From Dictyostelium discoideum (lineage: Eukaryota): a DNA stretch of 9,512 bases. A program made the translations under genes and the position numbers. Where the stretch lies: assembly GCA_000004695.1 (NCBI GenBank), contig CH709158.1, positions 1 to 9,512 of the forward strand, read 5' to 3'. A model generated the notes under the pieces. It had not been told where the DNA came from, ran no database searches, and worked only from the letters and a program-made list of their open reading frames with translations. Of this stretch, positions 1 through 9,512 are shown piece after piece (position 1 is the first letter of the stretch; the number at the start of each line of letters is the position of its first letter).

Positions 1-230
1 GCATATTACATTACTAATTATAGTTGACACACATTTAAATAATATAATAATAATAATAATAATAATAATACTGTCGACTCATTATGAATAATATAAATAC
101 TAAAGAATAATTTTATAAACAATATTGAATATTATAAATATAAATTAATATTAAATAAAGATAACAAAGTATTATTCAATTATATAATTATTAATTATAT
201 ATATTTATAAAGCTAACAAGCTTTATTACA
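1..230 (+). repeat. 5' LTR (partial), ending with ATTACA.
   Basis: Near-identical to 4772..4998. The only differences are one G/A SNP (pos 76 vs 4846) and one extra AAT unit in the (AAT)n tract 46..70. Confidence 0.9.
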
Positions 231-232
231 TT

Positions 233-249
233 TGGCGACATCGTCTTTC
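233..249 (+). promoter_or_regulatory. Candidate primer binding site (TGGCGACATCGTCTTTC), 2-3 nt after the 5' LTR end.
   Basis: It begins with TGG, complementary to the tRNA 3' CCA, and sits immediately 3' of the LTR terminus ATTACA. I could not identify the cognate tRNA from memory. Confidence 0.45.
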
Positions 250-250
250 A

Positions 251-343
251 AAAAAAAAAAAAAAAAAAAATATACTATAAATATAAAGTTATCAAATTAT
301 TCAATCAATTAAAATTTTACATTAGATTAAATTTAATTTAATA

Positions 344-430
<87 letters not shown>
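251..430 (+). repeat. Oligo(dA)-rich leader of the retroelement.
   Basis: A-runs at 251..271 and 351..429. The second is about 80 nt of nearly pure A interrupted by g/ttt. Confidence 0.8.
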
Positions 431-431
<1 letters not shown>

Positions 432-605
432 TTTTTTATGAAAACCGTATTTTTTTCGGGTAATGGAAAGGGTTAATCATTCTTTAATTTCAACCACTAA
501 CTCTTATTAATTCATGGCGAGGAAATATCGAAAGCTGATATTATTAGAAAACTAAGAAACAATGCATTGGAATATGCCGCAACATTGGATACAGACTTAA
601 CAGCA

Positions 606-3600
606 ATGGAGATAATTGAAGATCTTAAAGATGCTTTTGATATTGGTGATAGTGATGATTTATCAGATTTAACAAAGTTAGGAGAATATAAATACAATAC
701 ATTAGATATATTAATTGGTAAATTTCTTTCAAAATGTTCAGCAGTTGATATTTCAGAAAAGTTTAAAATACAATTGTTTTATTCAGCTGTTGGTATTGAA
801 TTGGGTATTGAAATTACAAAATGTGCACCAAAATCATTAAAAAGAGCAATAGACATTGCAAAGTCTTGTGAAGATGGTTCAATTCGTATGAGAGGTAGAT
901 CAATGTATACTGGTCAATTGGTTGCAAAAACATTACAAGAATTTGGAACTCAAAAGTATCTTGGTTCTGGATCTGGTTATACAACATCACCACAGTACGT
1001 TACATCTCAAACTGAACAATCTACTGAAACTGAAGTATTAGCAACTCCAATTTATAAAAATCAAACATATTCACCACCACCATCACCTTATAAAGCACCA
1101 CAAAATCAAGTAAATTCAATCACAAAATTTTGTAAATATTGCAAAAAGAAAGGTCATGTAATTCAAGAGTGTTGGTCTAAAGATAAAAAGAATAATTATA
1201 ATGAGAATAAACAATCATATAATAATCATAGCACTAATGCAATTACAATGGTTAATGATAAAACGATTAATTCTATTGGAACTGATAGTATGAATGCAGC
1301 ATTATTAATAAATGATAAGAATGTTAGAGGTTTAGTTGATACTGGTTCTTCTCTTACCATCATTTGGGAAAGTATTGCTAAAAAATTAAATTTAAAAGTT
1401 GAAGGTAAATCATTTTCAGTTAATTCAGCATCAAATAATGAAATTAAGATAGTTGGTAGTTGTGATACCATAATTAAATTAGGTAAAGCATCCGCAAAAG
1501 TTAATGTTAATATTGTTAAAGATAATGATACTTCAATCGATTGCATTTTTGGTGTAGATACACTTATTGGATTGAAATTAATAATTGATTGCAAGGAAAT
1601 GATCATTAAGAATCTTGAATTTAATGTTGGTACAAGATTAATCACCAGAGAAACCAAACCAATTGTTTGCAAAATTGATCTAAATATATTAGAAAAAGTA
1701 TCAAAACCAATGGCTGAGTTATTAATCAAAAATGAAGAGATTTTTGAAACCAAATTGTCAAAACCAGGATCATTAATAGATGTTGAACATTCAATTAAAT
1801 TAACTGATGAAAATGTTTCTGTTTATACTCCACCATACAAAACTAGTCCAGCTGATAAAGAATTCATTGAAGAATACATTAAAGATGCATTAGATAAAGG
1901 TATAATCGAGAAATCAGATTCATCACAATACGGTTCTCCAATAGTCTTATCCAGAAAGAATGATAAAATTAGATTTTGTGTTAATTATAAAAAACTAAAT
2001 GACCTCACAATTAAAGATAGATATCCACTTCCATTAATTTCTGATTGTTGGTATTATCTCAAAGATGCAAAAGTTTTCTCAAAAATTGATCTTACTTCTG
2101 GTTATTATCAAATCAAAATGAAAGAAGAGGACAAGGATAAAACAACCTTTGTCTCTCATATGGGTCAATTTAGATATGTTGTAATGCCATTTGGATTATG
2201 TAATGCACCAGCAACTTTTCAAAGATACATGAATGAATTATTAAAGGATGAATTAAGAAAAAGTAATATTGGGTTTATTGACGATTGTATAATTTATAGC
2301 AAGAATAATGAATATCATATTGAACATGTCAAACTATTATTCGAAAAATTCAAAGAAAAAGGTGCAAAGTTACAAATAACTAAATGTGAGTTTGAAAAAG
2401 AAGAGATCAAGTTTTTGGGATATATCGTTTCAAAGAATGGTATTACTTATGATAGTTCAAAGTTTAATGAATTATTAAAAACACCACCTCCATCAAATCA
2501 AAAAGAATTAATGAAATTACTCGGTACTGTCAATTACTTTAGAACATTCATTAAAAATTTCACTCATTTAACTTCATCATTTTATCCACTATTAAAGAAG
2601 GGTGTTAATTTCAAATGGACTGATGAATTGGAAAATGATCGTGTAAAATTATTTACTACATTAGCACAAACTAATCTTTTAAGTTTTCCACAAGATACAG
2701 ATGATAATGTTATTGAAACTGATGCTTCAATTATTGGTATTGGTGGTGTAATGATTCAAAATGGTAAACCAGTTTCTTATTATTCAAGAACATTAAACAA
2801 CGCTGAAAAGAATTATTCTGTTACTGAAAGAGAATGTTTGGCAATCATTGAATCAATTAAATATTTTAAATCCTATATCAATGGTAGAAAAGTAAAAATC
2901 ATCACTGATCATCAACCTTTGAAATATCTCTTAACTGGTAAATTTACTGATCGTATTACAAGATGGACTGTATTACTTCAAGAGTATAATTACGAAATTA
3001 TATATAGACCTGGTAAAGAAAACTTTTTAGCTGATGCATTATCAAGATGTCCAGATAGAGATCAACAGCCAATTGATTGTGATATTCCAGAAAAGATATT
3101 TACAATTACTCACTATCCAGTAGCTTCACCATCAACTACAATTTTACCAAGAGTCTTACCATCAAGATCAAATCAAACATCTAATGTTTCACCAGCTACA
3201 ACAATTCAACCACCAAATTCATCAAGTTCAAATCAATCATCAAATATCCCACCAACAACAAACCAATCATCAAATATTACAAATCAACCAATAAATACTT
3301 CATCAATGAATTTAAATCAATCATTATCAAATCAAGCAACAACCGCTAGATTATTGAATAGTGTACCTATCTCAATCAACAATGATAATATTAATACAAC
3401 AACTCCACAATTTACACAAGAGTCAATAAGAAAAGAGTTGGAAAAAGAAAATTATTATAGAGCAATGTATAAATATCTTGAAGAAACAAGACTTCCAGAC
3501 AATGCACAAGCAGCAAGAAGAATTTTGTTCGAGTCTGAATTTTATTCAATGATTAATGGATTTCTTTGTCACGGTTTAAAACATACTTTATCAAGTAAGA

Positions 3601-4718
3601 AATCTCATTTTAAACATCTTCAAATTGTAGTTCCAAAAACTATGACTAAATGGATAATGGAAATATTTCATGATTCGCCACTTACTGGAGGACATTTTGG
3701 ATTATTAAAAACTGTCGCAAAAATCAAAGAAAGATTCTATTGGATTGGTATGATTAAGGATATAAAAGAATTTATCGATAAATGTACAACTTGTTTACAA
3801 ATTAAAAGAAAGTATGGTCCAAAAGAAGGTTTACTCATTCCAATTGAGATTGAACCTGAACCATTTAATACAATTGGTATTGATTTTATTGGTCCAATTA
3901 CAAAAGATAATGCTCAAGTTTATTTGTTGGTTGTTATGGATTATTTTACTAAATGGCCAGAAGTTTTCTTTACCCTTGATATGGAAGGGGAGACTGTAGC
4001 TCAATTATTGTTGTATGAAATCTATACTAGATATGGGGTTCCAAAGAAGTTGGTTTCTGATCGTGGTAAGAATTTTTTAAGTAATGTAGTCTCTGGTGTT
4101 AATAAATTATTCGGTGTTCACAAATTAACAACTACTGCTTATCACCCACAATGTGATGGTCAAACTGAAAATTTCAATAATACATTAATTAAGATGCTCA
4201 AAGCTTTTATTGGTAATGAATTGTATGGCAATTGGGGTGAATTATTAAGATGTGTTTTATACTCATACAGAATTACACCACATGTTTCAACTGGTTTTTC
4301 ACCCTTTTTCTTACTTTTTAATCGTCAACCAACTTTACCATTAGATACAACTTTAAATGTAAATTTTTATTCAAATTCACTAAGATTAGATTTCGCTGAT
4401 AATTATGCACAATCCGTAAATAATAATCTTAAACGTGCCTTTTGGTTTACAAAGAATAATCTCGATAAAGCTCAAGAATTACAAAAAACAAATTATGATA
4501 AAGGTCGTCGTCCAACAAATATTCAAACAGGTGATTTTGTTTATTTACATACACCATATTCACAAACTTCTATTGGTCCAAAGAAATTCTATAAACCTTG
4601 GAGAGGTCCTTTTAAAGTTCAAGAAAAAGTTAGCGATGTTACATTCAAATTAGATATGGGTAATCTTAGAGATCATAAAGTAGTCAATATTGAAAGATTG
4701 AAAAAAATTTTCAACTAA
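606..4718 (+). CDS. Gag-Pol polyprotein of the LTR retrotransposon. The frame is open from 501 and the ORF-track start is TTG 567.
   Basis: First in-frame ATG at 606 and TAA stop at 4716..4718. There are no internal stops or frameshifts between the gag and pol parts. Confidence 0.9.
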   Translation: MEIIEDLKDAFDIGDSDDLSDLTKLGEYKYNTLDILIGKFLSKCSAVDISEKFKIQLFYSAVGIELGIEITKCAPKSLKRAIDIAKSCEDGSIRMRGRSMYTGQLVAKTLQEFGTQKYLGSGSGYTTSPQYVTSQTEQSTETEVLATPIYKNQTYSPPPSPYKAPQNQVNSITKFCKYCKKKGHVIQECWSKDKKNNYNENKQSYNNHSTNAITMVNDKTINSIGTDSMNAALLINDKNVRGLVDTGSSLTIIWESIAKKLNLKVEGKSFSVNSASNNEIKIVGSCDTIIKLGKASAKVNVNIVKDNDTSIDCIFGVDTLIGLKLIIDCKEMIIKNLEFNVGTRLITRETKPIVCKIDLNILEKVSKPMAELLIKNEEIFETKLSKPGSLIDVEHSIKLTDENVSVYTPPYKTSPADKEFIEEYIKDALDKGIIEKSDSSQYGSPIVLSRKNDKIRFCVNYKKLNDLTIKDRYPLPLISDCWYYLKDAKVFSKIDLTSGYYQIKMKEEDKDKTTFVSHMGQFRYVVMPFGLCNAPATFQRYMNELLKDELRKSNIGFIDDCIIYSKNNEYHIEHVKLLFEKFKEKGAKLQITKCEFEKEEIKFLGYIVSKNGITYDSSKFNELLKTPPPSNQKELMKLLGTVNYFRTFIKNFTHLTSSFYPLLKKGVNFKWTDELENDRVKLFTTLAQTNLLSFPQDTDDNVIETDASIIGIGGVMIQNGKPVSYYSRTLNNAEKNYSVTERECLAIIESIKYFKSYINGRKVKIITDHQPLKYLLTGKFTDRITRWTVLLQEYNYEIIYRPGKENFLADALSRCPDRDQQPIDCDIPEKIFTITHYPVASPSTTILPRVLPSRSNQTSNVSPATTIQPPNSSSSNQSSNIPPTTNQSSNITNQPINTSSMNLNQSLSNQATTARLLNSVPISINNDNINTTTPQFTQESIRKELEKENYYRAMYKYLEETRLPDNAQAARRILFESEFYSMINGFLCHGLKHTLSSKKSHFKHLQIVVPKTMTKWIMEIFHDSPLTGGHFGLLKTVAKIKERFYWIGMIKDIKEFIDKCTTCLQIKRKYGPKEGLLIPIEIEPEPFNTIGIDFIGPITKDNAQVYLLVVMDYFTKWPEVFFTLDMEGETVAQLLLYEIYTRYGVPKKLVSDRGKNFLSNVVSGVNKLFGVHKLTTTAYHPQCDGQTENFNNTLIKMLKAFIGNELYGNWGELLRCVLYSYRITPHVSTGFSPFFLLFNRQPTLPLDTTLNVNFYSNSLRLDFADNYAQSVNNNLKRAFWFTKNNLDKAQELQKTNYDKGRRPTNIQTGDFVYLHTPYSQTSIGPKKFYKPWRGPFKVQEKVSDVTFKLDMGNLRDHKVVNIERLKKIFN
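1131..1172 (+). other. Gag CCHC zinc knuckle (CKYCKKKGHVIQEC).
   Basis: C-X2-C-X4-H-X4-C pattern at aa 189-202 of the ORF. Confidence 0.85.
1284..1601 (+). other. Aspartic protease domain, with active site LVDTGSS (DTG at 1338..1346).
   Basis: Retropepsin D-T-G-S motif followed by the hydrophobic stretch IIW, plus a later GVDTLIGL-like flap region. Confidence 0.85.
1749..2441 (+). other. Reverse transcriptase domain.
   Basis: Motif A KIDLTSGYYQI, the PFGL.NAP motif, and FIDD (a YXDD variant) at 2274..2285. Confidence 0.9.
2679..2936 (+). other. RNase H domain.
   Basis: IETDASIIGIGGV (catalytic D at 2721), TERECLAI (E around 2826) and ITDHQPL (D at 2907), in typical Ty3/gypsy RH arrangement. 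Confidence 0.85.
3117..3416 (+). other. S/T/N/Q/P-rich low-complexity linker between RNase H and integrase.
   Basis: About 100 aa (aa 851-950) dominated by S, T, N, Q and P, with SSNQSSNI-type repeats. Confidence 0.8.
3669..3794 (+). other. Integrase N-terminal HHCC zinc-binding domain.
   Basis: H1035, H1043, C1073 and C1076 (HDSPLTGGH...CTTC). Confidence 0.85.
3849..4346 (+). other. Integrase DDE catalytic core.
   Basis: D at 3882 (IGIDFIG), D at 4059 (LVSDRGKNF) and E at 4167 (GQTENFN). Confidence 0.85.
4524..4715 (+). other. Integrase C-terminal GPF/Y module. There is no chromodomain.
   Basis: WRGPFKV...HKVVNIERLK matches the GPY/F motif. It lacks the aromatic-cage spacing of chromodomains. 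Confidence 0.7.
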
Positions 4719-4730
4719 AAGGGGGGGATA
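4717..4730 (+). promoter_or_regulatory. Polypurine tract (AAAAGGGGGGGATA) abutting the 3' LTR.
   Basis: A pure purine run overlaps the stop codon and is directly followed by the LTR start TGTAAT at 4731. Confidence 0.85.
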
Positions 4731-4998
4731 TGTAATAAAGTTACTCTATAAAATTAATAGATATTAAATATGCATATTACATTACTAATTATAGTTGACA
4801 CACATTTAAATAATATAATAATAATAATAATAATAATACTGTCAACTCATTATGAATAATATAAATACTAAAGAATAATTTTATAAACAATATTGAATAT
4901 TATAAATATAAATTAATATTAAATAAAGATAACAAAGTATTATTCAATTATATAATTATTAATTATATATATTTATAAAGCTAACAAGCTTTATTACA
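4731..4998 (+). repeat. 3' LTR (TGTAAT...ATTACA).
   Basis: It matches the 5' LTR. The 6-bp terminal inverted repeats are TGTAAT and ATTACA, and it contains (AAT)7 at 4817..4838. Confidence 0.9.
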
Positions 4999-5452
4999 TT
5001 TTGAAATATTTTTGAAATATTTTTGCACCATTACGTTTTATTTCCATTCCAAAAAAAAAAAACGTTTTATTTTTCATTGGGAAGAAACTAATAATTGTGT
5101 TATCCAATTCAAAAAAGTATTTTTCATTTAAATTATTTTTTTTATATAATTCTACAGTATTTCATGAATGTTCATTTTTATTCTTTATTATTTTTTTTTT
5201 TTTAATTTTTAATTTTTTTTTTTTTTTTTTTTGAAAATTAAAATCAAAACCAAGATATTTTTTTTTTTTTCTTCCCTTATTTTTTTTTTTTTATTTTTAT
5301 AACTATTCTTTAATAGAATTCTTTTTTTAAAAAAAAAGAACACCATGGAAGCTTTTTTGTTTTTTTTTTAAAAATGGATATAAATTATTATTTTTTTTTT
5401 TTAAAAAAATAAAACAAGATAATATCCAAAAATAAATAAAACAGAAAAAAAA

Positions 5453-5968
5453 ATGCCTCCAAAGATTAAAATAATTACAGGTCCAATCGGTTCTGGAAAA
5501 ACAACAATTTTAAATAGAATCAAAGAGTCATATGAAAGAAAAGAAATCTTTATTGGTCAAAAGGTTGGATTTTTTGGTGAACCTACTGATTCCACTGTAG
5601 CTAATGCTCTCCTAAAGGATATGTACTCAAAGTTTCCATTTGCTAATGATCAGTTTGAAACTTTACAAAAATACCTAATGGCTGTGGAAGCTAATGATTT
5701 ATGTAATGCTTTGTCATCGTCAGAGTATGATATTGTTTACTTTGATACATCGGTTTTGTATGGAGTTGTATTTTTACAAACTGCTAATGATTTGAAAATC
5801 ATAAACAATCAAACCTATTCAAATTGTCTAACGTTTTACTATCAAATGATTTCAAATATTAATTTCGAAAATGCTGAAGTAACCAATTTAAAAGTCATAC
5901 CACACATAGGTGTATGGAGCAAATTAACCAAAGAGGTAGAGCCTTTGAAGTCGGTAGTTTATCTATAG
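5453..5968 (+). CDS. P-loop kinase-like protein, possibly a deoxynucleoside or nucleotide kinase family member. The reading frame appears interrupted.
   Basis: Walker A motif GPIGSGKTT at 5480..5506, then a GEP motif about 27 aa later and an FDTS motif reminiscent of dNK ERS. AAAAATG start context. Dictyostelium-like codon usage. Confidence 0.5.
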   Translation: MPPKIKIITGPIGSGKTTILNRIKESYERKEIFIGQKVGFFGEPTDSTVANALLKDMYSKFPFANDQFETLQKYLMAVEANDLCNALSSSEYDIVYFDTSVLYGVVFLQTANDLKIINNQTYSNCLTFYYQMISNINFENAEVTNLKVIPHIGVWSKLTKEVEPLKSVVYL

Positions 5969-6059
5969 ACTATGTTTCCAAATTAACCGATAAAATTCGA
6001 TCTCATTGTGTTAGCCAAGTTTATCAAGACTTGAAAAACCAATAAAATGCTGTATCCAT

Positions 6060-6239
6060 AGAGAATACAAAAGCAATGATGACCTGTTCAATGACATTTT
6101 CTTTAATGAAAATCCAAACTCAATTCCCACACCATCAAATACTCTAACTCAATCTCTTCAAAGTTCACACTCAAATCTTAGTTTTTATTACCCATCGAAT
6201 CAAGAGCAATATTTTAATATTCAAGATTATTTGAATTAA
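6060..6239 (+). CDS. Possible 3' part of the same kinase-like gene in a different frame (REYKSNDDLFNDIFFNENPNSIPTPSNTL...QDYLN*), reached via an intermediate segment 5968..6047.
   Basis: Coding-like, less AT-rich sequence continues to TAA 6237..6239 in frame 0. The segment 5968..6047 is open in frame 1 (DYVSKLTDKIRSHCVSQVYQDLKNQ). No AT-rich GT..AG introns were recognisable between the pieces. Confidence 0.3.
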   Translation, partial: REYKSNDDLFNDIFFNENPNSIPTPSNTLTQSLQSSHSNLSFYYPSNQEQYFNIQDYLN

Positions 6240-6321
6240 TAAAACTAAATTCTAAATAATACTATAAAAAAAAAAAAAAAAAATAAAAATATATTTAAAT
6301 TAAATAAAAAAAGAAAAAAAA

Positions 6322-6507
6322 ATGTCTACATTTGCCGATCTTCGTTCTGTTTCAGGTGGCTTACTAGGTGGTATGGGTAGTATTGGTGTTGCCGCTCTTG
6401 GTGCCTACTTTATTTATACAAGTGAAATTGGAAGCGTTGATTTCAATATGGGTGTTGGTTTTGCTGCCTTTGGTTGTCTCTTAGTCTCAGATCATTATTC
6501 AAAATAA
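6322..6507 (+). CDS. Small glycine-rich hydrophobic protein (61 aa), a putative membrane micro-protein.
   Basis: AAAAATG start context. The product carries GxxxG-like repeats (GGLLGGMGSIGVAALGAYF, GVGFAAFGCLLV). GC content is higher than the flanks. Confidence 0.45.
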   Translation: MSTFADLRSVSGGLLGGMGSIGVAALGAYFIYTSEIGSVDFNMGVGFAAFGCLLVSDHYSK

Positions 6508-6666
6508 AAATGATTAAAGAAAAATGATTAAAAGAAAAAAAAATAAAATAAAAATTTTTAAGATAACTAGATTTCAATGATTTTTTTTTCAATTATTATT
6601 TATCAAAATTATTTATTTATTTAAAATAAAAACAAAAATAGTTGATGGTTTTATTTGTTTTTTTCT

Positions 6667-6918
6667 TCATTTTCTTTTGGCACATAATCTAACAACTTTT
6701 CCATCTATATACTGAAGATTTGTTAATAATTCAGTTCTTTCTTTAAAACGATTTTTTTTTACGATTTTTTCTTTACAGTCAGCTGTACATACACAAGGTT
6801 CAAACTTGGGGAATTCATCTGGATCTGTTAATAGCCACATGTATTTACTCTTTTTTTCCTCAGCTTCTTCAATGGATAAATTTGAATGTGGGCACTTATT
6901 AGTAGTTCTTTCTTCCAT
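6667..6918 (-). CDS. Hypothetical 83-aa protein with a CPH...CVC..C cysteine cluster and a basic C-terminus.
   Basis: Clean ATG..TGA ORF on the minus strand with Dictyostelium-like codon usage. The coding-like composition contrasts with the AT-rich flanks. Confidence 0.45.
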   Translation of the reverse strand: MEERTTNKCPHSNLSIEEAEEKKSKYMWLLTDPDEFPKFEPCVCTADCKEKIVKKNRFKERTELLTNLQYIDGKVVRLCAKRK

Positions 6919-7167
6919 TATTTAAGTTGTAACTATAAATATGTTTGTGCGATAATGTTTTATTTTTAATGTTAGTAAAATAAGTATTAAAAAAAAATTA
7001 AATTATTATTTAAAAAAAATAGAAAAAAACTGTGGGTGTGGTGTTTTAATGATTCCAAAAAAAAAAAAAATCAATAATAAAATAAAAAATTTTATAAATA
7101 AAATCTTTAATCTTTTTTAAATTAACTCTTATATAATTATTTTGTAAATGGTTATTTCAAAATTAGA

Positions 7168-7415
7168 CCTAATGATCATGAGACCCTACGCTCTACCAAT
7201 TGTGCCAACCCGACATGTTGATATTTTTTGACAAAAAATGCTCAATCTGGTGTTATCCAATTCAAAAAAAAAAAGTTTCTTAATGATTTACCTTAGGATT
7301 ATGAGACCTGCACTATACCAACTTAACCAAACTGATATGTTGATATTTTTCCTTAGAAAAATGACTAACCAGATATTTTTTAATGTTGAAAAACTCAACC
7401 ATCTGGAATTCAAAA
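7168..7415 (-). repeat. Degenerate tandem duplication of two ~123-bp units, each carrying a tRNA-Met-like fragment covering the D-arm and a CAT anticodon arm.
   Basis: Minus-strand reads GGCACAATTGGTAGAGCGTAGGGTCTCATGATC (7168..7217) and GGTTAAGTTGGTATAGTGCAGGTCTCATAATCCTAAGG (7291..7334). Each is followed on the + strand by a shared GATATGTTGATATTTTT and a CTCAA..CTGG..TTCAAAAAAAA motif. No T-arm or acceptor 3' half is present. Confidence 0.6.
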
Positions 7416-7498
7416 AAAATTATAACCTTTACATCAACACCCCAAAAATTGAGGCTAATTCAATACCAACTACATAAGGTTAAGTTTAAAACAAAATA

Positions 7499-7545
7499 AT
7501 AAAAATTAATAATAATAATATTAACAATAATAATAAGAAATAAAA
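7499..7545. repeat. AAT/ATA-rich microsatellite-like tract.
   Basis: Imperfect (AAT)n: aataataaaaattaataataataatattaacaataataataag. Confidence 0.6.
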
Positions 7546-8249
7546 AAAATTTATTAAAAAACAATATCAAAACTCTGAGGCTTTGGGTTATATTATGGAA
7601 TTTCTTTTGGCAAAAAGAAAAAAAAAAAAAAAAATAAAATTCTAAGAAAAACTTACATAATTTAGAATAAGTAATTAAGAGATAATAGATAACACTATAT
7701 GTATGTTTTAGTGTAAAATTTCTTTTATAACCTTTAATTAAAATTTTTATTTTTCTCACCATTTTTCGTTTTTTCAAAAAAACTTAAAATGCATAATTTG
7801 GATAGTCTTTATTTGAAAGTAAAAAACCAGGAATGATAAGAAAAATAAAAATTTAAAATAAAGATTATAAAAAATAATTAACACACCAAAACATACCATA
7901 TGTTATTTATTATCTCTTAATTATTTACTTAATCTAATAGATATTCTAACAAAACATTTAAAAATAATTAGTTATGAAATACAAATATATGAATTAAATA
8001 TATGTTTAGAAATAAAACAAATAATTAAAACAAATAAAAGATTTATTATTGTTATGGAAATTGTAAAATAAAAACTGATGTTAGTCTCATTACAATTATG
8101 GGCGATGGTTTTTGCTAATAAAATTTAATAAGGCTTTAAAACTTTTTTTTTTTTTTTACATCTCTTTAAAAATTCCAATTTTCTTGCAACTTTCTTCCAA
8201 ATTTTAAGAAAGGTGATCATTTCCAGTATTTAAAATAAATTTCCATCAA

Positions 8250-8323
8250 GCCTTAGTAGCTCAGTTGGTACGAGCGTGAGACTGAAGATCTTAAGGTCGC
8301 TGGTTCGATCCCGGCCTGAGGCA
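8250..8323 (+). tRNA. tRNA-Phe (anticodon GAA).
   Basis: Acceptor GCCTTAG/CTGAGGC plus discriminator A. D-arm GCTC-AGTTGGTAC-GAGC. Anticodon loop CTGAAGA. T-arm GCTGG-TTCGATC-CCGGC (B box GGTTCGATCC). No encoded CCA. Confidence 0.9.
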
Positions 8324-8327
8324 AATA

Positions 8328-8333
8328 TTTTTT
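8328..8333 (+). terminator. Pol III oligo(dT) terminator.
   Basis: TTTTTT begins 5 nt after the tRNA 3' end. Confidence 0.75.
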
Positions 8334-8393
8334 GATGGTTTTCCAATGGCTGATGATCACTCCGCCGAAAAGACACAGTCTGATCACAGGTAA

Positions 8394-9071
8394 AAAAAAA
8401 AAAAAAAAAAGTTAAATCATACAGATAACAACACAACCAATACAAATAATACCTCCACAACCTCAACAACAAAAAACGAAAGTGCAAAAATCGACACACC
8501 TAAAAAACAAACCCTAACAAACCAACTCTCACTAAACAAAGGACTTGATAATCAATTAGATATCATTGCACCTCCATCAATCACAAGACCACTCTCCTTC
8601 TTAGAAAAAAACAATAACACCATCAACATTAAGTGTTACTTTAATCAACCACACATCCATGAAGAATTAACCTCTAAAGATGACACAAGAATCCAACAAA
8701 TTCACAAAAATATTCACAAACTCTTCGAAGATATACTGTCGCCATCAGCATTTAAAATAATTGGTGCAACAGCCTTGGTAAATTGCAACGTTGATAAATT
8801 AACTTCAATAATCAACCTTCAAAACCAACTTGCACTAAATATAGACAAACTCAACTATAGATTCGATATATCATCAAATGATTATGCAACCATTAAAACA
8901 TTCATTAAAACGTACTCACCCAAACATGCAAACGATGCAATTATAAACAACCTCACTAAATTCACCAGTTGTACATCAATTGAATCATTTACTGTCACAT
9001 ACTCATATGCTGTTGCGTTTAAAAGCTACATTATAACATATCATCTAATTGATCACACACAACATTGTTGA
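8394..9071 (+). CDS. Open frame without an ATG inside an A+C-rich, T-poor block. It is candidate ORF sequence of a tRNA-gene-associated repetitive element (TRE3-like) or a 5'-incomplete gene.
   Basis: Frame 0 is open from the TAA at 8391..8393 to the TGA at 9072..9074, about 226 codons. There is no in-frame ATG. It starts with poly-K from a 19-nt A-run. Strong strand asymmetry (A about 50%, C about 25-30%, very few T) begins abruptly at 8411, 88 bp after the tRNA end. Confidence 0.35.
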   Translation, partial: KKKKKKLNHTDNNTTNTNNTSTTSTTKNESAKIDTPKKQTLTNQLSLNKGLDNQLDIIAPPSITRPLSFLEKNNNTINIKCYFNQPHIHEELTSKDDTRIQQIHKNIHKLFEDILSPSAFKIIGATALVNCNVDKLTSIINLQNQLALNIDKLNYRFDISSNDYATIKTFIKTYSPKHANDAIINNLTKFTSCTSIESFTVTYSYAVAFKSYIITYHLIDHTQHC

Positions 9072-9369
9072 TCAAAAGATCGAACAACCATCTGGTATCA
9101 CAAGATATATCAAAGCTGCAACACGTAGTGTCACTAAACACAAAATTCAACATGCAAAAAATGCAGATATGGCAACAACTATAAAAAATGCTCTCACAAA
9201 CCCAAATATTAACAAAAACTATCAACCACCAAAAAACAACATTAACACCCCACCAATCAACGAAATTGCAAATTCCAATCGCAATAATAACCCACTTCAA
9301 AATAGTGGTTCAAAAGCTACACTAAATGAATCACTTAATAATAACGGGAAAAACTCATTATCAATGTGA
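9049..9369 (+). CDS. Overlapping downstream ORF in frame +1 (N/P/Q-rich, 106 aa) within the same A+C-rich block.
   Basis: ATG at 9049 and TGA at 9367..9369. It overlaps the upstream frame by 23 nt. This layout fits either an ORF1/ORF2-type overlap or a frameshifted pseudo-ORF. Confidence 0.25.
   Translation: MITHNIVDQKIEQPSGITRYIKAATRSVTKHKIQHAKNADMATTIKNALTNPNINKNYQPPKNNINTPPINEIANSNRNNNPLQNSGSKATLNESLNNNGKNSLSM
9230..9345 (+). repeat. Left arm of a large imperfect inverted repeat (palindrome).
   Basis: The reverse complement of 9238..9345 matches 9398..9505 at about 92% identity. The mismatches are gaaccactattttgaag vs gaacaactatttggaag, gggtt vs gggct, and tgcg vs tgtg. Confidence 0.85.
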
Positions 9370-9397
9370 GATTTCATTATTGTTTTGGGATTGATTG

Positions 9398-9512
9398 TTA
9401 TTATTAAGTGATTCATTTAGTGTAGCTTTTGAACAACTATTTGGAAGTGGGCTATTATTGTGATTGGAATTTGCAATTTCGTTGATTGGTGGGGTGTTAA
9501 TGCTGCTTTTTG
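9398..9512 (-). repeat. Right arm of the inverted repeat. It runs to the window end.
   Basis: gttattattaagtgattcatttagtgtagcttttgaac... is the reverse complement of ...gttcaaaagctacactaaatgaatcacttaataataac. The spacer is 9346..9397. Confidence 0.85.

What the first reader, a model, noticed from the sequence alone, without database searches (positions are those of the whole stretch)
1..4998. Young, apparently intact LTR retrotransposon with a single uninterrupted 1383-codon gag-pol ORF
The two LTRs differ only by one SNP and one AAT-unit indel across ~230 comparable bp, so the insertion looks recent. One ORF with no stop or frameshift carries gag (CCHC), PR (DTG), RT (FIDD), RH (D-E-D) and IN (HHCC+DDE+GPF). 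A PBS-like site and a PPT are also present. Together this suggests a potentially retrotransposition-competent copy. The fused single ORF and missing chromodomain separate it from Skipper-type elements and point to a DGLT-A-like family.
Basis: partly seen in the sequence, partly recalled or inferred. Interest (0 to 1): 0.5.

Follow-up and report, generated by a model that had tools for sequence, protein, structure and literature searches.

The report
Known Dictyostelium DGLT-A retrotransposon copy
This is a copy of DGLT-A, an already described Ty3/gypsy-type retrotransposon of the social amoeba Dictyostelium discoideum that inserts just upstream of tRNA genes. As written in this contig its reading frame is broken near the start, most likely by old sequencing errors.

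Summary
There are two near-identical LTRs, a PBS, a PPT and a long ORF with CCHC, PR, RT, RNase H and IN motifs and no chromodomain. The guess "DGLT-A-like" is correct.

The window is a whole 9,512-bp unplaced contig of D. discoideum AX4 (genes DDB_G0294236 and DDB_G0294238). The polyprotein is 98% identical to the published DGLT-A polyprotein, and the PBS is the published one.

"Uninterrupted" is only partly right. The family ORF has 1,437 codons and starts at ATG 429. In this contig it is hit by in-frame TAA codons at 474 and 498, and the first ATG after them is at 606.

Those stops lie in a cluster of 18 contig-private differences (432-499) directly after a 36-A run. In 15 of the 18 the called base equals the next true base, which is the signature of Sanger slippage. 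A block in gag (663-1085) also carries the sequence of paralogous copies.

The same locus in an independent assembly (flank 0 differences in 4,453 bp) holds a complete 5,044-bp element. It has an intact 1,437-codon ORF and LTRs that differ by one 3-bp unit. It has a 4-bp target duplication (TTTT) and sits 13 bp upstream of a tRNA-Met gene.

The family and this copy are already known. The modest point of interest is that D. discoideum does hold a structurally intact DGLT-A, contrary to published statements.

The parts
1..230 (+). 5' LTR of DGLT-A, cut by the contig end (first 41 bp missing). It ends in CTTTATTACA.
   Evidence: It aligns with 4772-4998 with one substitution (G76) and one 3-bp unit. 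The full 271-bp LTR is seen at the orthologous locus, L001 9551-9821.
233..249 (+). Primer binding site TGGCGACATCGTCTTTC, 2 bp downstream of the LTR.
   Evidence: Read directly. It is identical to the PBS published for D. discoideum DGLT-A, for which no matching tRNA is known (PMC5006619).
250..428 (+). A-rich leader with A-runs of 21 (250-270), 33 (351-383) and 36 (394-429) bases.
   Evidence: The run lengths differ between assemblies.
429..500 (+). Start of the canonical gag-pol ORF (ATG 429), with two in-frame TAA stops (474-476, 498-500). There are 18 contig-private differences here, and they are probable Sanger slippage errors.
   Evidence: Comparison with P0001/P0123 and with L001, L002 and L003. 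In 15 of the 18 differences the window base equals the next reference base. P is about 4e-6 at p=1/3.
501..4718 (+). Open part of the gag-pol frame. The first ATG is at 606 and the stop at 4716-4718. It is annotated in AX4 as DDB_G0294236, 'partial'.
   Evidence: P0125 equals the window translation from 558.
663..1085 (+). Gag block whose about 50 variant sites and three indels match paralogous copies (L002/L003). They do not match the orthologous copy (L001) or the published consensus.
   Evidence: Variant-site table and protein comparison.
1131..1172 (+). Gag zinc knuckle CX2CX4HX4C (CKYCKKKGHVIQEC).
1305..1559 (+). Aspartic protease (LVDTGSS at 1332-1352).
   Evidence: Pfam PF13650, E=4.7e-11; motif.
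1956..2429 (+). Reverse transcriptase (FIDD at 2274-2285).
   Evidence: Pfam PF00078, E=6.6e-30.
2616..2987 (+). RNase H. In DGLT-A this is the domain reported to bind the TFIIIC subunit Tfc4.
   Evidence: Pfam PF17917 and PF17919. The function is taken from PMC6101501 and was not tested here.
3630..4706 (+). Integrase: HHCC 3669-3794, catalytic D-D-E 3873-4172, GPF 4599-4613, and a short SH3-like C-terminus with no chromodomain.
   Evidence: Pfam PF17921, PF00665, PF22938 and PF24626, and no PF00385.
4717..4730 (+). Polypurine tract AAAAGGGGGGGATA, immediately upstream of the 3' LTR.
4731..4998 (+). 3' LTR, 268 bp, TGTAATAAAG...CTTTATTACA.
4999..5002 (+). 3' copy of the 4-bp target-site duplication TTTT. 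The 5' copy lies outside the contig.
   Evidence: The 5' flank at L001 ends ...GATATTTTT and the 3' flank starts TTTTG. Other copies show 4-bp duplications: TGAA (L003) and ACCT (L006).

Best explanation
The region 1-4998 is one genomic copy of DGLT-A, the tRNA-gene-targeting Ty3/gypsy LTR retrotransposon of Dictyostelium discoideum. It lies on a 9,512-bp unplaced contig of the AX4 reference assembly, and the contig's left end cuts the 5' LTR.

How the element works (established for this class and from the literature, not tested here):
- The LTR drives a genomic RNA that encodes a single Gag-PR-RT-RNH-IN polyprotein.
- Reverse transcription is primed at the PBS next to the 5' LTR and at the PPT next to the 3' LTR.
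- The integrase inserts the cDNA about 13-18 bp upstream of a tRNA gene.
- The published model is that the element's RNase H and the IN N-terminal domain bind the TFIIIC subunit Tfc4.

This insertion sits 13 bp upstream of a tRNA-Met(CAT) gene that lies just beyond the contig end. It is flanked by a 4-bp duplication (TTTT).

In the contig as written, the canonical 1,437-codon ORF is interrupted by two TAA codons at codons 16 and 24. I infer that these stops, and the 16 other private differences in 432-499, are base-calling errors caused by polymerase slippage on the preceding 36-A run. I also infer that the gag block 663-1085 came from reads of a paralogous copy.

The real copy would then be structurally intact. 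It is intact at the same locus in an independent long-read assembly of what is probably the sister lab strain AX2.
For: Identity of the element and the contig:
- The polyprotein is 98% identical over its full length to DGLT-A polyprotein AAG37039/Q9GQ51.
- P0125 (DDB_G0294236) and P0128 (DDB_G0294238) are both recorded on a 9,512-bp AX4 contig, and P0125 equals the window translation.
- The PBS, the single ORF, the missing chromodomain, the PPT and the LTR length all match the published description.

Orthologous locus:
- Window 1-9512 is collinear with L001 9592-19108.
- There are 0 differences in the flank 4999-9451.
- At L001 the element is 5,044 bp, the ORF is 1,437 aa and intact (P0123), and the LTRs differ only by one 3-bp unit.
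- A tRNA-Met gene lies at 9463-9537 on the minus strand, 13 bp from the LTR start at 9551.

Artefact inference:
- All 18 differences in 432-499 are private to the window, while L001, L002 and L003 agree with each other.
- In 15 of the 18 the window base equals the next reference base, against 2 that equal the previous base. The binomial P is 4.5e-6 at p=1/3 and 1.2e-3 at p=0.5.
- The cluster starts right after a 36-A run.
- Positions 1852-4998 have no difference from L001.

N-terminus:
- The first 59 residues are conserved in relatives down to about 52% identity, so this is real coding sequence.
Against: - No AX4 reads or quality values could be examined, so the artefact and chimera inferences are indirect.
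- A real ectopic gene conversion in one lab lineage cannot be excluded for the 663-1085 block.
- That assembly GCA_054883475.1 is AX2-214 is an inference from zero flank divergence and from the strain list in PMC12745789. It was not read from the record.
- No functional evidence for retrotransposition of any D. discoideum DGLT-A exists in the papers read.
- No tRNA matching the PBS is known.
- Identical LTRs date the insertion only weakly in an organism with a very low mutation rate (my own knowledge, not tested here).
Confidence: 0.8

Rival explanations
1. The sequence is correct as written. The AX4 copy at this locus is a dead DGLT-A with two genuine nonsense mutations at codons 16 and 24 and a gene-converted gag segment. 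At most it could express an N-terminally truncated polyprotein from ATG 606.
For: - The stops are in the deposited reference sequence.
- The AX4 annotation calls the gene 'partial'.
- Published surveys report no full-length or competent DGLT-A in AX4.
- Gene conversion between 98-99% identical copies is plausible.
Against: - There are 18 private changes in 72 bp and only one (G76) in the other roughly 4,900 bp of the element.
- There are none in 4,453 bp of flank.
- The changes belong to no single mutational class, yet 15 of 18 copy the following base, directly after a 36-A run.
- The published AX4-derived consensus has an intact N-terminus and the L001-type gag.
Confidence: 0.17
2. The contig is a wholesale assembly chimera. 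The element and the flank 4999-9512 are not really adjacent, so the copy as a unit does not exist.
For: - It is an unplaced contig and both of its ends lie in repeats: the LTR on the left and a repeated element at 8410-9512 on the right.
- Part of gag does look foreign.
Against: An independent assembly shows the same LTR-flank junction and complete collinearity over all 9,512 bp.
Confidence: 0.02
3. The element belongs to another Dictyostelium LTR family (Skipper-1, Skipper-2 or DGLT-P) rather than to DGLT-A.
For: They share the Ty3/gypsy domain order. The literature gives 34% identity to Skipper-1 in RT-RNH-IN.
Against: - There is no chromodomain.
- There is one ORF, not two.
- It has a TGG-type PBS rather than the polypyrimidine tract of Skipper.
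- It is 98% identical to the DGLT-A polyprotein.
- It lies upstream of a tRNA gene, not in centromeric clusters.
Confidence: 0.01

Closest known systems
DGLT-A of Dictyostelium discoideum (consensus 5,054 bp, LTR 265 bp, polyprotein AAG37039 / Q9GQ51, 1,437 aa; Glöckner et al. 2001 as cited in PMC5006619 and PMC6101501)
   Same: It has the same PBS sequence and position, the same PPT position, and the same LTR length and TG...CA ends. It has a single gag-pol ORF with CCHC-PR-RT-RNH-IN and a short IN C-terminus without a chromodomain. The protein is 98% identical. At the orthologous locus the insertion is 13 bp upstream of a tRNA gene.
   Different: As deposited, this copy has two in-frame stops at codons 16 and 24 and a gag block of a second subtype that is 8 codons shorter. 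The contig end removes 41 bp of the 5' LTR. The published surveys state that no D. discoideum copy is full length, whereas the same insertion in an independent assembly is full length and open.
Ty3 of Saccharomyces cerevisiae
   Same: It is a Ty3/gypsy element with the order PR-RT-RNH-IN. It integrates about 15 bp upstream of the mature tRNA coding sequence at Pol III-transcribed genes (PMC6101501, PMC5006619).
   Different: Ty3 has separate GAG3 and POL3 frames joined by a +1 frameshift, whereas DGLT-A has one frame. Ty3 targeting works through IN binding to TFIIIB, whereas DGLT-A is reported to use RNH/IN-NTD binding to Tfc4 of TFIIIC. Ty3 makes 5-bp duplications (my own knowledge). The three DGLT-A copies examined here show 4 bp. 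RT/RNH identity is only about 35%.
Skipper-1 of D. discoideum (chromovirus)
   Same: It is a Ty3/gypsy LTR retrotransposon of the same host, with a CCHC gag and the same enzyme order.
   Different: Skipper has two ORFs, a C-terminal chromodomain, a polypyrimidine tract instead of a PBS, and a centromeric location. None of these applies here.

Membership tests
DGLT-A (D. discoideum) | High sequence identity to the DGLT-A polyprotein or consensus | tested here: met
   98% identity at 100% coverage to AAG37039/Q9GQ51.
DGLT-A (D. discoideum) | All functions in one ORF: Gag(CX2CX4HX4C)-PR-RT-RNH-IN | tested here: met
   All motifs lie in one frame. The frame carries two stops at codons 16 and 24 in this deposit, and these are probably artefacts.
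DGLT-A (D. discoideum) | No chromodomain and a short IN C-terminal extension after GPY/F | tested here: met
   There is no PF00385 hit. GPF lies at aa 1393-1395 of 1,429, leaving 34 residues after it. The literature gives 32 aa.
DGLT-A (D. discoideum) | [quoted passage not shown] | tested here: met
   PBS at 233-249 and PPT at 4717-4730.
DGLT-A (D. discoideum) | Integration 13-33 bp upstream of a tRNA gene | tested here: met
   This cannot be seen in the window, because the contig ends inside the LTR. At the orthologous locus L001 the LTR starts 13 bp upstream of tRNA-Met(CAT). In L003 the LTR ends 13 bp upstream of tRNA-Gln.
DGLT-A (D. discoideum) | Targeting through binding of RNH/IN-NTD to TFIIIC subunit Tfc4 | not testable with these tools
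   Literature only (PMC6101501). The RNH and IN sequence of the window is identical to that of L001 at the DNA level.
Retrotransposition-competent ('intact') LTR element | Uninterrupted full-length ORF from the family's start codon | tested here: not met
   There are TAA codons at 474-476 and 498-500 downstream of ATG 429. The feature is met by the same insertion in L001 (1,437 aa).
Retrotransposition-competent ('intact') LTR element | Two complete LTRs flanked by a target-site duplication | tested here: inconclusive
   The 5' LTR is cut by the contig end. In L001 both LTRs are complete and flanked by TTTT/TTTT, a 4-bp match inside a T-run that is weak on its own. It is supported by TGAA and ACCT at two other copies.
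Skipper (chromovirus) | Chromodomain C-terminal to IN, two ORFs, and a polypyrimidine tract instead of a PBS | tested here: not met

The most novel reading that the evidence does not exclude
D. discoideum lab strains (AX4 and, probably, AX2) carry a structurally complete DGLT-A at the tRNA-Met locus. It has two LTRs identical except for one microsatellite unit, a PBS, a PPT and an open 1,437-codon ORF. This could be a still-active master copy. It would have been overlooked because in the AX4 reference it sits on an unplaced contig, cut at the LTR and damaged by sequencing errors. That would overturn the published statement that no full-length DGLT-A exists in D. discoideum and that the family can no longer amplify there. 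A wild D. discoideum isolate also holds an intact copy with identical LTRs (L006).
Probability: 0.3. Interest if true: 0.4.

Novelty: already known. Interest (0 to 1): 0.25.

Why it matters
DGLT-A is the amoebal counterpart of yeast Ty3 and a model for convergent evolution of tRNA-gene targeting. Work on it has relied on a derived consensus, because the reference genome was thought to lack any full-length copy.

If the copy on this contig is intact in reality, as it is at the same locus in an independent assembly, a natural source element is available for retrotransposition assays. The claim that the family is extinct in D. discoideum would also need revising.

The case also shows how a homopolymer-induced Sanger artefact in a reference contig can make a live-looking element appear dead. 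A naive ORF scan hides this, because it reports the long downstream ORF as 'uninterrupted'.

Tried and rejected
- **Exact-protein look-ups of window products.** The products tried were 606-4718, P0125, 5453-5968 and 6667-6918. The aim was to recover the contig's genomic neighbourhood. None was on record. P0122 (AX4 chromosome 3 copy) was also not on record.
- **Search for an empty (pre-insertion) site in a wild strain.** I used the neighbouring dNK-like gene. The best candidate, L004, shares only 1.4 kb at 94.6% and has no tRNA, so it is a paralogue. No empty site was obtained.
- **Tf1-like self-priming as an answer to the missing primer tRNA.** The window holds no complement of the PBS within 3 mismatches apart from the PBS itself. 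The best PBS-LTR RNA duplex is -5 kcal/mol, weaker than most shuffles. Rejected.
- **The repeats at 7185-7228 and 7307-7350 as complete tRNA genes.** ARAGORN and Rfam find only tRNA-Phe. The repeats are truncated 5' parts.
- **A 5-bp target-site duplication.** TTTTT vs TTTTG, TTGAA vs TGAAA and AACCT vs ACCTT all fail at 5 bp and match at 4 bp.
- **Glöckner et al. 2001.** The paper could not be read because it is not held.
Full report
**What is in the sequence**

The window is AT-rich: 14-32% G+C in 500-bp windows.

- Positions 1-230 and 4772-4998 are direct repeats. They differ by one substitution (G76 vs A) and one 3-bp ATA/AAT unit.
- The 3' LTR runs from 4731 to 4998 (268 bp) and has 10-bp inverted ends, TGTAATAAAG...CTTTATTACA.
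- The 5' LTR is cut by the start of the window and lacks its first 41 bp.
- Two bases after the 5' LTR lies TGGCGACATCGTCTTTC (233-249).
- Directly before the 3' LTR lies AAAAGGGGGGGATA (4717-4730).
- Between them one frame is open from 501 to the stop at 4716-4718.
- Pfam finds an aspartic protease, RVT_1, two RT-associated RNase H models, the integrase H2C2 zinc domain, the rve core and a short Tf2/p58-type C-terminal SH3. It finds no chromodomain.

The descriptive part of the finding is therefore confirmed.

**What it is**

- The polyprotein is 98% identical over its full length to UniProt Q9GQ51 / GenBank AAG37039, 'polyprotein [Dictyostelium discoideum]', 1,437 aa.
- The literature gives 1,437 aa as the length of the single DGLT-A ORF (PMC6101501).
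[quoted passage not shown] The window matches this letter for letter.
- The published consensus length is 5,054 bp and the LTR length 265 bp, which also agree.
- Two proteins of the collection are recorded on an AX4 contig of exactly 9,512 bp: DDB_G0294236 ('partial', 1,386 aa) and DDB_G0294238. The first equals the window translation from position 558.

The family and this copy are already in the databases.

**The ORF is not uninterrupted**

- The figure of 1,383 codons corresponds to a TTG start at 567 under bacterial rules. The first in-frame ATG is at 606.
- The family ORF starts 177 nt further upstream. P0001 begins MSNNENIIFSGDGKGLSFRKFKHLLLLIHGEEISK....
- The same frame in the window, read from ATG 429, gives MFFMKTVFFSGNGKG*SFFNFNH*LLLIHGEEISK. 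There are TAA codons at 474-476 and 498-500.
- The N-terminal 59 residues are conserved in DGLT-A relatives down to about 52% identity. They are therefore genuine Gag sequence.
- Taken literally, this copy cannot make the full polyprotein.

**The same locus in an independent assembly**

- Protein P0123 (1,437 aa) led to locus L001 in assembly GCA_054883475.1.
- The whole window is collinear with L001 9592-19108.
- The flank 4999-9451 shows no difference at all in 4,453 bp. Three mismatches occur only in the last 60 bp, inside a repeat at the contig end.
- That assembly belongs to a project that sequenced the lab strain AX2-214 and wild isolates (PMC12745789). Given zero flank divergence I infer that it is AX2-214, but I could not read the strain name.
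- In L001 the element is complete: 5,044 bp (9551-14594), LTRs of 271 and 268 bp that differ only by the 3-bp unit, a PBS, a PPT and an open 1,437-codon ORF.
- A tRNA-Met(CAT) gene lies at 9463-9537 on the minus strand. Its 5' end is 13 bp from the first base of the LTR. This is the published DGLT-A target distance of 13-18 bp.
- In the window this tRNA gene would lie 54 bp beyond the left end.

**Target-site duplication**

- The 5' flank in L001 ends ...GATATTTTT. The 3' flank, identical in the window at 4999 onward, begins TTTTGAAAT.
- A 5-bp duplication fails (TTTTT vs TTTTG). A 4-bp TTTT duplication fits, but within a T-run that is weak evidence on its own.
- Two other copies settle the length:
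  - L003 has TGAA|LTR...LTR|TGAA, with the LTR end 13 bp upstream of tRNA-Gln.
  - L006, from another D. discoideum strain, has ACCT|LTR...LTR|ACCT.
- At 5 bp both of these fail.

**Where the window differs from its orthologue**

A four-way alignment with L001 and two paralogous copies from the same assembly (L002, L003) shows a sharply structured pattern.

1. *G76 is private to the window.* The 'one SNP between the LTRs' is therefore not seen in the other assembly.
2. *Positions 432-499 hold 18 differences that are all private to the window.* L001, L002 and L003 agree with each other there.
   - The cluster begins immediately after a run of 36 A (394-429) and includes both stop codons.
   - There is no net length change.
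   - In 15 of the 18 differences the window base is the next base of the reference. Only 2 equal the previous base.
   - The binomial P is 4.5e-6 at p=1/3 and 1.2e-3 at p=0.5.
   - This is what a Sanger trace looks like after slippage on a homopolymer, when a one-base-shorter product is superimposed on the in-phase signal.
   - The changes fit no single mutational class.
3. *Positions 663-1085 carry about 50 variant sites and three indels (24 nt in total).* At all of them the window agrees with L002 and L003 and disagrees with L001.
   - The published consensus, derived from AX4 data, has the L001 type there.
   - At three more sites (810, 1715, 1851) L001 alone differs from the window, L002 and L003. 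At 810 and 1851 the published consensus protein also agrees with the window, so these two look private to L001.
4. *Positions 1852-4998 are identical to L001.*

With zero divergence in the flank, natural divergence cannot explain (2) and (3).

- The most economical reading is that roughly 430-1100 of this low-coverage repeat contig was built from poor or paralogous reads.
- A real gene conversion in one lab lineage remains possible for (3).
- I consider real mutation very unlikely for (2).

**How it works**

Shown here: the anatomy (LTR-PBS-gag/pol-PPT-LTR), the target position, and the duplication length.

From established knowledge of LTR retrotransposons:
- The element is transcribed from the 5' LTR.
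- The polyprotein is translated and cleaved by PR.
- Minus-strand synthesis is primed at the PBS and plus-strand synthesis at the PPT.
- The IN-mediated staggered cut gives the short duplication.

From the literature: DGLT-A RNase H and the IN N-terminal domain bind TFIIIC subunit Tfc4 at TPR 7/8. This is proposed to place the intasome about 15 bp upstream of tRNA genes, convergently with Ty3, which uses TFIIIB.

The primer remains unknown. The literature found no tRNA complementary to the PBS. I found no support for Tf1-like self-priming.

**Is it young and competent?**

- LTR identity is effectively complete. However, 268 bp in an organism with a very low mutation rate (my own knowledge) gives only a loose upper bound on age.
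- The insertion is shared by the two assemblies, so it predates their split.
- Three copies in one genome are 98-99% identical to each other.
- A wild D. discoideum assembly holds a 5,095-bp copy with LTRs without a single mismatch and an open 1,451-codon ORF.
- This argues that the family was active recently in the species.
- Published surveys state that no D. discoideum copy is full length and that the family may no longer amplify.
- L001, and by inference the true AX4 copy, contradicts the first half of that statement. Competence itself is untested.

**Verdict**

It is an already known element in a reference genome.
- The claim of an uninterrupted ORF is wrong for the sequence as deposited, but it is probably right for the real locus.
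- Interest is low to moderate. The only non-trivial outcome is that a structurally intact DGLT-A exists in D. discoideum, and that its apparent defects in AX4 look like sequencing and assembly artefacts.

Noticed in passing
window 7165-7228 and 7290-7350, minus strand: There are two truncated tRNA-Met(CAT)-like fragments. Each holds about 47 nt of the 5' part, through the anticodon arm, with no T arm. Each is preceded by the same 14-nt upstream flank (AAAAATATCAACAT) that separates the intact tRNA-Met gene from the DGLT-A LTR in L001. ARAGORN and Rfam do not call them (D16, 7, 11, 18, 30).
   Followed up: partly
window 8250-8323 (+): An intact tRNA-Phe(GAA) gene (ARAGORN; Rfam 62.5 bits). The ORF list shows a spurious 89-aa ORF on the opposite strand across it.
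   Followed up: yes
window 8410-9512; L001 8301-9238, 18006-19108 and 18826-19926: The right end of the contig, from 87 bp downstream of tRNA-Phe, is a repeat that occurs three times in L001. One of these occurrences lies in the 5' part of a 1,529-aa APE+RT (non-LTR retrotransposon) gene next to tRNA-Met. By its position downstream of tRNA genes it is probably a TRE3-type element, but the family name was not verified. Both contig ends therefore lie in repeats.
   Followed up: partly
window 9230-9345 / 9397-9512: A 116-nt inverted repeat, 95% complementary, with a 51-nt spacer. In L001 it is the centre of a much larger palindrome: two copies of the 1.1-kb repeat head to head, 94.7% identical. 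The only three mismatches between the window flank and L001 (9452, 9503, 9506) lie here (I1, 29, 43).
   Followed up: partly
window 5085-5112 and 7262-7285; L002 about 5545-5571; L003 about 10530-10560: The motif GYGTTATCCAATTC followed by an A-run recurs near the tRNA-Met units. The same motif plus A-run is the end of the insertions that truncate the 5' LTR in L002 and interrupt the 3' LTR in L003. It is probably the 3' end of a poly(A) (non-LTR, TRE-type) retrotransposon. DGLT-A here would then lie between tRNA-Met and an older remnant of that kind.
   Followed up: partly
window 5453-6239 (+): A host gene, DDB_G0294238, with a P-loop (GPIGSGKTT). Some relatives carry the deoxynucleoside kinase Pfam domain. 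It belongs to a multi-copy family in Dictyostelium genomes. The closest copy in another D. discoideum strain (L004) is not syntenic.
   Followed up: partly
AX4 chromosome 3 copy DDB_G0280521 (P0122) vs L003 (P0124): The AX4 protein differs from its counterpart in the other assembly at only 2 of 1,422 residues (G301R and V358G). Both copies share a 15-codon deletion in the IN C-terminal region, and the 3' LTR (seen in L003) is interrupted by a 2.2-kb insertion. That copy is defective, unlike L001.
   Followed up: partly
window 3160-3277 (+): A short imperfect 28-30-nt repeat lies in the Ser/Asn/Thr/Pro-rich linker between RNase H and IN. The linker varies in length among DGLT-A copies: there is a 21-nt indel at 3327, and the linker is longer in P0126 and P0002 (D14, 21, 37).
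   Followed up: no
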